The notes beneath the pieces are model-generated. The model had not been told where the DNA came from and made no database searches. It saw nothing but the letters and a program-made list of their open reading frames with translations. This document shows positions 2,776-3,240 of a stretch of 22,976 bases of DNA, piece after piece. The translations under genes and the position numbers were made by a program. Source of the DNA: a virus (taxonomy: Duplodnaviria; Heunggongvirae; Uroviricota; Caudoviricetes); IMG/VR virus record IMGVR_UViG_2563366959_000008. One strand, 5' to 3'. How positions within the stretch are numbered: the first letter of the stretch is position 1; the number at the start of each line of letters is the position of its first letter.

Positions 2776-3240
2776 TGTTTTGTTATGAAGGTGTTACTGG
2801 TAACGTTAAGGTAATTTAACAAAGAGTCAGTTCCGGACTTTATAGTGTGCTCAGTTCATGGCCAAAAACGATTTCTGTGATAAATATTTTGAATATTATT
2901 TACAGGTAAATGGAGTGGGGCACATGGATAGAAATATTACAATAGAGAATGAAGTATATGCCCGTATTGTATGGGCAGAGAAGGCAAAAACACGGTAATT
3001 CCGTGTGTTGCCATGATACCTGATTGGCAGAATAGTTGTTTGGTTTTGAGTATATAGTCAGCGTTTTTTGTTCAGTAATTGCTCCCTCAAAAAATAATAA
3101 AATAAGGTGATTATTTTTGTTTATTATTTAGTTTTTTTTGTGTGTTGTTTTATTGTTTTTGCGTGGTTTGTTTTTTATTGTTATTTCATTAAGGGAAGGT
3201 AAATTCAGGATGGCAGTCTGTAGATAATCGGAGGTCACTT

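What the first reader, a model, noticed from the sequence alone, without database searches (positions are those of the whole stretch)
3060..3200. Strand-asymmetric T/G-rich low-complexity tract upstream of the PerC-like gene
About 140 bp is almost devoid of C and A on the plus strand (…gattatttttgtttattatttagttttttttgtgtgttgttttattgtttttgcgtggtttgttttttattgttatttcatt…), with reiterated tttgttt and ttttatt units. Such tracts are intrinsically bent and are typical nucleation sites for H-NS-type silencers; here it sits where the promoter of the PerC-like gene must be.
Basis: partly seen in the sequence, partly recalled or inferred. Interest (0 to 1): 0.4.

Follow-up and report, generated by a model that had tools for sequence, protein, structure and literature searches.

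The report
T-rich promoter tract of pch gene
The odd T-rich stretch is the promoter of a prophage-borne PerC-family (pch) virulence regulator gene of attaching-and-effacing E. coli, plus the T-rich DNA just upstream of that promoter, so it is a real but ordinary feature, and the proposed H-NS silencing remains untested.

Summary
The tract is real but shorter than reported. It spans 3108-3190 (83 nt, 58 T, 2 C) and is the most T-rich stretch of the 23-kb window, far beyond chance.

It lies in a pchA/B/C-type moron (a self-contained accessory gene unit) in a lambdoid prophage late region, between Rz and the terminase genes.

- **Promoter position.** Published Cappable-seq data for E. coli O157:H7 EDL933, whose pch upstream sequence is identical, place the main transcription start at window 3188 in all 8 conditions. 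That puts the -10 (TATTGT, 3176-3181) and -35 (TTGTTT, 3153-3158, 17-nt spacer) inside the tract.
- **Comparative support.** Across the 52 distinct sequences among 81 related loci, the two hexamers and the spacer length are almost invariant. The spacer, the discriminator and the upstream T-rich part (-36 to -80) are the most variable DNA of the locus, yet stay about 68% T.
- **Small ORF rejected.** A 31-codon hydrophobic ORF in the tract is frameshifted or lacks its start codon in many variants.
- **Bending and H-NS.** Predicted curvature is only what the composition gives. No H-NS high-affinity motif is present, and I found no H-NS binding data for this locus.

Bending is weakly supported and H-NS nucleation is plausible but untested. 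This is ordinary, largely known biology.

The parts
3108..3190 (+). T/G-rich, C-poor tract (58 T of 83 nt); holds the pch core promoter and its upstream zone
3108..3152 (+). Upstream T-rich zone, positions -80 to -36 (GC 0.16, no C). It is hypervariable in sequence; the T8 run at 3132-3139 is T7 in 28 of 81 loci. Probable UP-like and/or nucleoid-protein target (inferred).
3153..3158 (+). -35 hexamer TTGTTT (3 of 6 consensus matches)
   Evidence: Position follows from the TSS. Kept in 78 of 81 loci and a local minimum of variability.
3159..3175 (+). 17-nt spacer: length kept in 76 of 81 loci, sequence free to vary
3176..3181 (+). -10 hexamer TATTGT (4 of 6, with A at position 2 and T at position 6), at -12 to -7
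3188..3188 (+). Main transcription start (A), equivalent to EDL933 position 1271063, seen in all 8 Cappable-seq conditions. Minor starts map to 3203 and 3213.
3188..3240 (+). 53-nt 5' leader with Shine-Dalgarno GGAGG at 3230-3234
3241..3555 (+). pch gene (PerC-family transcriptional regulator, 104 aa)
3592..3622 (+). Intrinsic terminator hairpin that closes the moron. An A-run before it and a T-run after it make it look bidirectional.
   Evidence: -14.7 kcal/mol, z -5.2
2776..3075 (+). Conserved distal part of the pch upstream region. It is inherited one-to-one with pch; the best copy in every record is at least 95% identical.
3088..3107 (+). A-rich run bordering the tract on its 5' side; variable between copies

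Best explanation
The tract is the sigma-70-type promoter of a pchA/B/C-type PerC-family gene together with its immediately upstream region. The gene is a self-contained 'moron' (promoter, gene, terminator) inserted in the late operon of a lambdoid prophage, between Rz and the terminase genes.

**Shown.** RNA polymerase starts at A3188. The -10 (TATTGT, 3176-3181) and -35 (TTGTTT, 3153-3158, 17-nt spacer) are built from the T/G-rich sequence itself. Both hexamers match the consensus poorly (7 of 12 together).

**Inferred.** Because the hexamers are weak, the remaining 45 nt of T-rich, easily melted DNA at -36 to -80 probably sets promoter strength and regulation. It could do this through contacts with the alpha C-terminal domain of RNA polymerase (as an UP element does), through AT-binding nucleoid proteins and regulators, or both. 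Candidates are H-NS/StpA/Hha as silencers, and Lrp, LeuO and LrhA, which reviews report to act on pch. The AT-rich discriminator (TATTTC) fits the reported positive control of pchA by ppGpp/DksA; that report is from my own memory of the literature.

**Evolution.** Only the hexamers and the spacer length are under tight sequence constraint. The rest drifts by substitution and T-run slippage while staying T-rich.
For: - **Transcription start.** In the Cappable-seq TSS table for EDL933 (PMC10469882, supplementary files 6 and 8), the PerC-family gene EDL933_RS06260 has TSS 1271063 in all 8 conditions, with relative read scores of 164-2240, plus minor TSSs at 1271048 and 1271038.
- **Mapping to the window.** The EDL933 gene lies at 1270696-1271010 on the minus strand, and its upstream sequence is identical to the window's, so 1271063 corresponds to window 3188.
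- **Promoter scan.** Only 7 promoter-like combinations with at least 7 of 12 matches exist on the plus strand of 3090-3235. Two of them predict the observed starts: 3188 for the main TSS, and 3212 next to the minor TSS at 3213.
- **Conservation of the elements.** In 81 loci (52 distinct sequences), TTGTTT is kept in 78, TATTGT in 79 and the 17-nt spacing in 76, while the spacer sequence differs freely.
- **Variability profile.** The mean number of the 52 sequences that differ from the majority is 0.3 in the -10 and 1.3 in the -35. It is 6.4 in the spacer, 6.8 in the discriminator and 4.9 in the upstream zone.
- **Moron architecture.** The annotated neighbours (lysozyme, Rz-like lysis protein, pch, ylcI/ynfO, terminase) and the terminator hairpin give the promoter-gene-terminator layout.
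- **Composition is kept.** T fraction is 0.67-0.70 in 25 of 28 tract variants and length is 79-83 nt in 26, including a family with about 25% substitutions.
- **Regulators.** pch is reported to be controlled by LrhA, Lrp and LeuO (review PMC4456613) and through sigma-S (PMC10714755).
Against: - The TSS comes from one genome-scale data set. pch is multi-copy in EDL933, so read assignment among the copies is uncertain; the position relative to the shared sequence is not.
- I could not retrieve a second, independent mapping. The Melson & Kendall 2019 and Honda 2009 papers are not held, and the Sakai dRNA-seq paper has no supplementary file held as text.
- Both hexamers are weak, and the tool's own promoter scan did not report this promoter.
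- The match to the UP-element consensus is poor: about 7 of 15 specified positions by eye, with no A-tracts.
- Any role of the -36 to -80 zone is inference. Its high variability could equally mean that it is under little constraint.
Confidence: 0.85

Rival explanations
1. The tract is mainly an H-NS (StpA/Hha) nucleation site. It silences the horizontally acquired pch gene until anti-silencers act. This is the first reader's reading, and it is compatible with the promoter explanation rather than exclusive of it.
For: - The DNA is 79% A+T over 3085-3205, inside a 465-nt intergenic region of 33% GC.
- The locus is on a prophage.
- Regulatory intergenic regions bound by H-NS evolve faster than unbound ones in E. 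coli (PMC4720273). That matches the hypervariability seen here.
- LeuO and Lrp, which often oppose H-NS (my own knowledge), are reported to act on pch.
Against: - No match to the high-affinity motif TCGATAAATT with up to 2 mismatches lies in 3060-3240.
- Predicted curvature is no higher than in composition-matched shuffles.
- The start at 3188 is used in all 8 laboratory conditions with sizeable signal, so the promoter is not fully silenced.
- No H-NS ChIP or hns-mutant result for pch was found.
Confidence: 0.4
2. Apart from the two hexamers, the tract is functionally neutral low-complexity DNA. It would be made and maintained by tandem duplication and replication slippage, and its T-richness would be a mutational by-product.
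For: - Imperfect repeats of 21 and 25 nt are present.
- The -35 and -10 lie in two similar TTTTATTGTT units 25 nt apart.
- T runs differ by 1-2 nt between copies, and one copy carries a deletion of about 39 nt.
- The tract has the highest diversity of the locus.
Against: - T fraction (0.67-0.70) and length (79-83 nt) are kept in nearly all variants despite about 25% substitutions. The changes are mostly G to A or stay within T, and C remains rare.
- The weak hexamers suggest that the promoter needs help from its upstream DNA.
Confidence: 0.3
3. The tract encodes a 31-residue hydrophobic peptide (3107-3202, GTG start, MIIFVYYLVFFVCCFIVFAWFVFYCYFIKGR), for example a small membrane protein or a type I toxin.
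For: The ORF exists. T-rich codons give a fully hydrophobic sequence.
Against: - Among 28 tract variants, the start codon is lost in one whole family, and 1-2-nt indels in the T runs give different C-termini or early stops, with ORF lengths of 0, 7, 10, 19, 27, 30, 31, 39 and 44 residues.
- There is no Shine-Dalgarno sequence before the GTG.
- The main transcript starts at 3188, downstream of almost the whole ORF.
- A stretch this poor in A has few stop codons in any frame.
Confidence: 0.02
4. The tract is a phase-variable (contingency) tract: slippage in the T8 or T6 run would switch the pch promoter on and off.
For: T8 against T7 is polymorphic (48 against 28 of 81 loci), and the T6 run varies in a few loci. 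Copies within one genome differ.
Against: - The polymorphic T8 run lies at -56 to -49, outside the spacer.
- The 17-nt spacer is kept in 76 of 81 loci.
- Runs of 6-8 T are short for high-frequency slippage (my own knowledge).
Confidence: 0.07
5. The function lies in RNA: either a U-rich 5' leader on the plus strand, or an A-rich, C>G antisense RNA that acts as an Hfq (ARN-motif) or Rho loading site.
For: - Antisense TSSs exist at positions that map to window 3407 (4 of 8 conditions) and 3235 (1 condition), reading towards the tract.
- A minus-strand terminator-like hairpin lies at 3006-2990.
- The phage late transcript must cross the tract.
Against: - The main pch mRNA starts at 3188 and so excludes the tract.
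- No Rfam family matches, even at E-values up to 10.
- No minus-strand TSS between 2776 and 3187 appears in the held parts of the TSS tables.
- The sequence is not conserved.
Confidence: 0.03

Closest known systems
Promoter regions of pchA/pchB/pchC, the group-1 PerC homologues on lambdoid prophages of EHEC O157:H7
   Same: It is the same locus. The 781-nt segment from upstream region to stop codon is 99-100% identical in O157:H7, O145, O111 and other LEE-positive strains, with a median of 3 copies per genome. The protein, WP_001303878.1, is also the EDL933 protein. The TSS for this gene is listed in a public table.
   Different: No real difference. In the papers I could read, I did not find the T-rich tract, the hexamers or their conservation pattern described explicitly.
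Phage morons, such as bor and lom of lambda: an accessory gene with its own promoter and terminator inside the late operon
   Same: The gene sits between the lysis cassette and the terminase genes. It has its own mapped TSS and its own intrinsic terminator, and its AT-rich flanks (33-40% GC) surround a 49% GC gene.
   Different: It carries an unusually long (465 nt) regulatory region that is inherited with it, and it is multi-copy within a genome.
UP elements and upstream A/T-tract promoters, such as rrnB P1
   Same: An A+T-rich block lies at -40 to -60, upstream of a weak -35, with a T run at about -56 to -49 where the distal UP subsite has its T run (and the consensus from memory).
   Different: It has no A-tracts and a poor match to the consensus. 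It is T-only on the non-template strand and extends to -80. Dependence on the alpha C-terminal domain is untested.
H-NS-silenced promoters of horizontally acquired genes, such as LEE1/ler, proU and bgl
   Same: The DNA is very AT-rich, horizontally acquired, regulatory and fast-evolving.
   Different: There is no high-affinity motif and no curvature beyond what the composition gives. The promoter is active in all 8 tested laboratory conditions, and no binding data are available.

Membership tests
Sigma-70-type bacterial promoter | An experimentally mapped primary (5'-triphosphate) transcription start | tested here: met
   Cappable-seq TSS 1271063 in all 8 conditions for EDL933_RS06260. It maps to window 3188 through an identical upstream sequence. 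This is published data, not my own experiment.
Sigma-70-type bacterial promoter | A -10 hexamer at about -12 to -7 with A at position 2 and T at position 6 | tested here: met
   TATTGT at 3176-3181, exactly -12 to -7.
Sigma-70-type bacterial promoter | A -35 hexamer 16-18 bp upstream of the -10 | tested here: met
   TTGTTT at 3153-3158 with a 17-bp spacer. Only 3 of 6 positions match (the TTG), so the element is weak.
Sigma-70-type bacterial promoter | Hexamers and spacing conserved among relatives while the spacer sequence varies | tested here: met
UP element | Match to the consensus NNAAAWWTWTTTTNNAAAANNN at -59 to -38 | tested here: not met
   About 7 of 15 specified positions match by eye (3129-3150 reads TAGTTTTTTTTGTGTGTTGTTT). 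Only the T-run half matches. The consensus is quoted from memory.
UP element | Stimulation that depends on the alpha C-terminal domain of RNA polymerase | not testable with these tools
   Needs in vitro transcription with alpha-CTD-truncated RNA polymerase.
H-NS nucleation / silencing site | A+T content well above the genome average over 100 bp or more | tested here: met
   GC is 0.21 over 3085-3205 and 0.33 over the 465-nt intergenic region.
H-NS nucleation / silencing site | High-affinity motif tCGATAAATT (Lang et al. 2007, quoted from memory) | tested here: not met
   No match with up to 2 mismatches in 3060-3240. The window as a whole has 17 matches against 15.3 expected.
H-NS nucleation / silencing site | Intrinsic curvature from phased A/T tracts | tested here: inconclusive
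   Peaks reach the 98.7-99th percentile of the window in 3 wedge models, but 57-82% of composition-preserving shuffles are at least as curved. The model parameters were taken from memory.
H-NS nucleation / silencing site | H-NS occupancy in vivo and derepression in hns mutants | not testable with these tools
   The Fukui 2016 H-NS ChIP data exist only as a figure in what I could read. No table covering the pch loci was found.
Small membrane protein / type I toxin gene | Reading frame, start codon and length conserved among relatives | tested here: not met
Phase-variable promoter (homopolymer in the spacer) | A length-variable repeat between -35 and -10 that changes the spacing | tested here: not met
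   The variable T8 run lies at -56 to -49. The spacer is 17 nt in 76 of 81 loci.
Phage moron | Own promoter and own terminator around an accessory gene inside a phage operon | tested here: met
Curated RNA family (Rfam 15) | Covariance-model match | tested here: not met
   Nothing in 2700-4300 reaches its family's gathering score. The best E-value is 1.9, and that match lies outside the tract.

The most novel reading that the evidence does not exclude
The T-rich zone acts as an evolvable tuning region. Many redundant TTG and TATTGT-like motifs, together with slippage-prone T runs, would let the near-identical pch paralogues of one genome diverge quickly in promoter strength and in their response to H-NS and other regulators, while composition is held constant. 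This would explain the reported unequal contributions and differential regulation of pchA, pchB and pchC.
Probability: 0.2. Interest if true: 0.4.

Novelty: already known. Interest (0 to 1): 0.2.

Why it matters

Placing the core promoter inside the tract gives precise targets for mutagenesis. So does the finding that only the two hexamers and their spacing are constrained, while the T-rich upstream DNA varies between paralogues. Together these offer a simple testable reason why pch copies that encode the same protein behave differently.

This does not change any concept. It is a normal AT-rich promoter of a horizontally acquired gene.

Tried and rejected
- **Small hydrophobic ORF (3107-3202).** Rejected because the frame and start codon are not conserved.
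- **Known RNA family.** Rfam found nothing relevant at the gathering scores or at E-values up to 10.
- **Minus-strand sRNA.** I considered an sRNA running from a promoter-like site at 3123-3094 to the terminator-like hairpin at 3006-2990. No minus-strand TSS in that interval appears in the held parts of the EDL933 tables, so I dropped it.
- **HnrS/EcOnc10-12.** This prophage sRNA lies in Sp9, Sp10 and Sp12. From memory, the pch genes are in other Sakai prophages (Sp4, Sp11, Sp14). So I treated it as unrelated.
- **T-rich tract as a general feature of PerC genes.** It is not. Plasmid perC homologues sit in perB-perC or ssb-perC operons. The EDL933 PerC-family gene next to ibrB has an ordinary promoter region. 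E. albertii and pDEC5B-4 pch-like genes have only a milder AT-rich, T-skewed upstream region.
- **Phased curvature.** Not supported.
- **H-NS motif.** Absent.
- **Papers that could not be obtained.** Honda 2009, Melson & Kendall 2019 and Abe 2008 were not held.
- **TSS rows for the other EDL933 pch copies.** One supplement part covering 1.94-2.09 Mb held none, and I stopped there.
- **Inverted repeats.** The A-run and the T tract pair in many registers. This is a low-complexity effect and is not conserved.

Full report
**Observation.** The plus strand of 3108-3190 reads gattatttttgtttattatttagttttttttgtgtgttgttttattgtttttgcgtggtttgttttttattgttatttcatt, with 58 T, 14 G, 9 A and 2 C in 83 nt.
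- It is the most T-rich and most T+G-rich stretch of the 22,976-nt window. T fraction reaches 0.71 in 80 nt, against a mean of 0.228 and sd of 0.067. The longest C-free run of the window (3089-3161) lies here.
- In 300 dinucleotide-preserving shuffles of the window, the richest 83-nt window held 33.5 +/- 1.8 T, and never more than 40.
3060-3107 is ordinary DNA that ends in an A-run.
- Tandem Repeats Finder sees loose 21- and 25-nt periodicities at 72-74% matches.

**Context.** The window is the late region of a lambdoid prophage:
- lysozyme at 1439-1972 and an Rz-like lysis protein ending at 2775;
- a 465-nt intergenic region;
- a 104-codon PerC-family gene at 3241-3555;
- a hairpin terminator at 3592-3618 (-14.7 kcal/mol, z -5.2);
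- ylcI/ynfO on the opposite strand;
- the small and large terminase subunits.

The segment 2780-3560 is 99-100% identical in O157:H7, O145, O111 and other strains. It occurs in 673 of 5,426 complete E. coli genomes, with a median of 3 copies each. These are the pchA/B/C-type PerC homologues that activate ler and the LEE (reviews). The 300 nt upstream of the tract (2776-3075) occur at the same number of places (1,875 in 673 genomes), and the best copy in every record is at least 95% identical. The whole intergenic region therefore travels with pch. The tract itself is found nowhere else.

**Where transcription starts.** A Cappable-seq study of EDL933 used four media, each in exponential and stationary phase, in triplicate (PMC10469882).
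- It lists three starts for the PerC-family gene EDL933_RS06260: 1271063 in all eight conditions (relative read scores 164-2240), 1271048 in one condition and 1271038 in one condition.
- That gene lies at 1270696-1271010 on the minus strand of NZ_CP008957.1. Its upstream sequence is identical to the window's.
- The starts therefore map to window 3188 (an A, giving a 53-nt leader), 3203 and 3213.
- Counting back from 3188, TATTGT (3176-3181) sits at -12 to -7 and TTGTTT (3153-3158) lies 17 bp further upstream.
- A plain consensus scan of 3090-3235 finds only seven combinations with at least 7 of 12 matches. One is this promoter. Another (TTGTTA-16-TAAATT) predicts a start at 3212, next to the minor start at 3213.

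The 3' 38 nt of the tract (3153-3190) therefore hold the core promoter, from the -35 to just past the start. The other 45 nt (3108-3152) occupy -80 to -36.

**Comparative test.** I collected 80 IMG/VR loci with 99-100% identical Pch, plus strain A25, an E. albertii locus and others.
- Over a 900-nt alignment of 52 distinct sequences, the tract is the most variable part. Pairwise diversity is 0.13-0.19 in 3091-3180, 0.01-0.05 in the upstream non-coding DNA of 2851-3060, and at most 0.02 in the gene. The low value in the gene partly reflects how the loci were chosen.
- Within the tract the pattern is that of a promoter. TTGTTT is kept in 78 of 81 loci, TATTGT in 79 and the 17-nt spacing in 76. 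The spacer sequence, in contrast, comes in unrelated versions: TTGCGTGGTTTGTTTTT, TTATATAATTAGTTTTT, TTCTGTGATTTATTTTT and TTCTGTGGAGGGGAGAG.
- Per position, the mean number of sequences that deviate from the majority is 0.3 in the -10 and 1.3 in the -35. It is 6.4 in the spacer, 6.8 in the discriminator, 4.9 in the upstream zone and 7.0 in the A-run.
- Composition is nevertheless retained. T fraction is 0.67-0.70 in 25 of 28 variants, and length is 79-83 nt in 26.
- The T8 run at 3132-3139 is T7 in 28 loci.
- Copies within one genome differ, and one copy lacks about 39 nt including the -35 region.

**Rejected alternatives.**
- The 31-codon hydrophobic ORF (3107-3202) loses its start codon in one variant family and is frameshifted or truncated in many others. 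It has no ribosome-binding site and lies upstream of the main mRNA start.
- No Rfam family matches.
- A possible minus-strand sRNA has no TSS support in the tables I could read.
- Distant PerC genes sit inside operons with no such tract. Another PerC-family gene of EDL933 has an ordinary promoter region. The pch-like genes of E. albertii and of plasmid pDEC5B-4 have a milder AT-rich, T-skewed upstream region with a CATTAT -10-like box at the equivalent place.

**Bending and H-NS.**
- I computed curvature with three dinucleotide wedge models, using parameters from memory. The tract peaks at 22-26 degrees per 30 bp, against a window mean of about 9 degrees. That is the 98.7-99th percentile but not the top of the window. 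Shuffling the tract's own bases reaches at least the observed value in 57-82% of trials. The curvature is what any T-rich DNA would have, and the runs are not specially phased.
- The H-NS high-affinity motif is absent.
- The DNA is 79% A+T, and H-NS-bound regulatory regions are known to evolve fast. H-NS binding is therefore plausible.
- I found no ChIP or mutant data for this promoter, and the promoter fires in all eight laboratory conditions.

**Mechanism.**
- *Shown:* the position of the start, the hexamers and spacing, their selective conservation, and the moron architecture.
- *Inferred:* because both hexamers are weak (7 of 12 together), the T-rich, easily melted -36 to -80 zone probably contributes to RNA polymerase recruitment, in the manner of an UP element although the consensus match is poor. 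It probably also serves as a landing site for AT-binding regulators and silencers. The AT-rich discriminator fits the reported positive control by ppGpp/DksA, which I quote from memory. During lytic growth the late transcript must also read through the tract.

**Verdict.** The tract is real and highly non-random, but it is the promoter region of a well-studied virulence regulator gene. The bending claim is weak and the H-NS claim is untested. Novelty is low. The only mildly new points are that the promoter hexamers are carved out of the T/G-rich repeat, and that everything around them is hypervariable between paralogues.

Noticed in passing
window 2858-2998 (+): A 46-codon ORF lies in the conserved distal pch upstream region. 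It appears to correspond to a formerly annotated gene, EDL933_RS29835; I deduced this from distances in a supplementary table. Only a weak TSS, equivalent to window 2813, is listed, in 1 of 8 conditions. A shorter 24-codon version starting at 2925 has a GGAG 8 nt upstream.
   Followed up: partly
window about 3407 and 3235, minus strand: The EDL933 Cappable-seq tables list antisense starts inside the pch coding region (1270844, 4 of 8 conditions) and just upstream of the start codon (1271016, 1 condition). Both read towards the T tract. A minus-strand terminator-like hairpin lies at 3006-2990.
   Followed up: partly
window 3592-3622: A strong hairpin (-14.7 kcal/mol, z -5.2) is flanked by an A-run and a T-run. 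It looks like a bidirectional terminator shared by pch (+) and ylcI/ynfO (3637-3861, -). The tool's simple terminator scan missed it.
   Followed up: yes
window 6657-7772: An IS3-family element (transposase ORF 6840-7730 on the minus strand, ALIL frameshift pseudoknot at 7656-7772) follows a head-tail-joining ORF of 47 codons. The same gene has 68 codons in the related locus L001. The prophage is therefore probably disrupted.
   Followed up: no
L063 (IMGVR_UViG_2728369393_000011), L075 and L064, compared with L011, L013 and L008: pch copies within one genome encode 99-100% identical proteins but carry different promoter-tract variants: T6, T7 or T8 runs, a different spacer family, and one deletion of about 39 nt that removes the -35 region.
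   Followed up: partly
L001 2210-3423 (E. coli O145 RM9872): In this otherwise identical locus, an IS3-family transposase gene is annotated between the lysis gene and the conserved pch upstream region. Its end lies less than 80 nt before the point equivalent to window 2780.
   Followed up: no
L088 (Salmonella plasmid pLG26p2): A distant PerC-family gene lies about 550 nt upstream of a plasmid-borne hha gene, so a PerC-like regulator and an H-NS co-silencer sit in one gene cluster.
   Followed up: no
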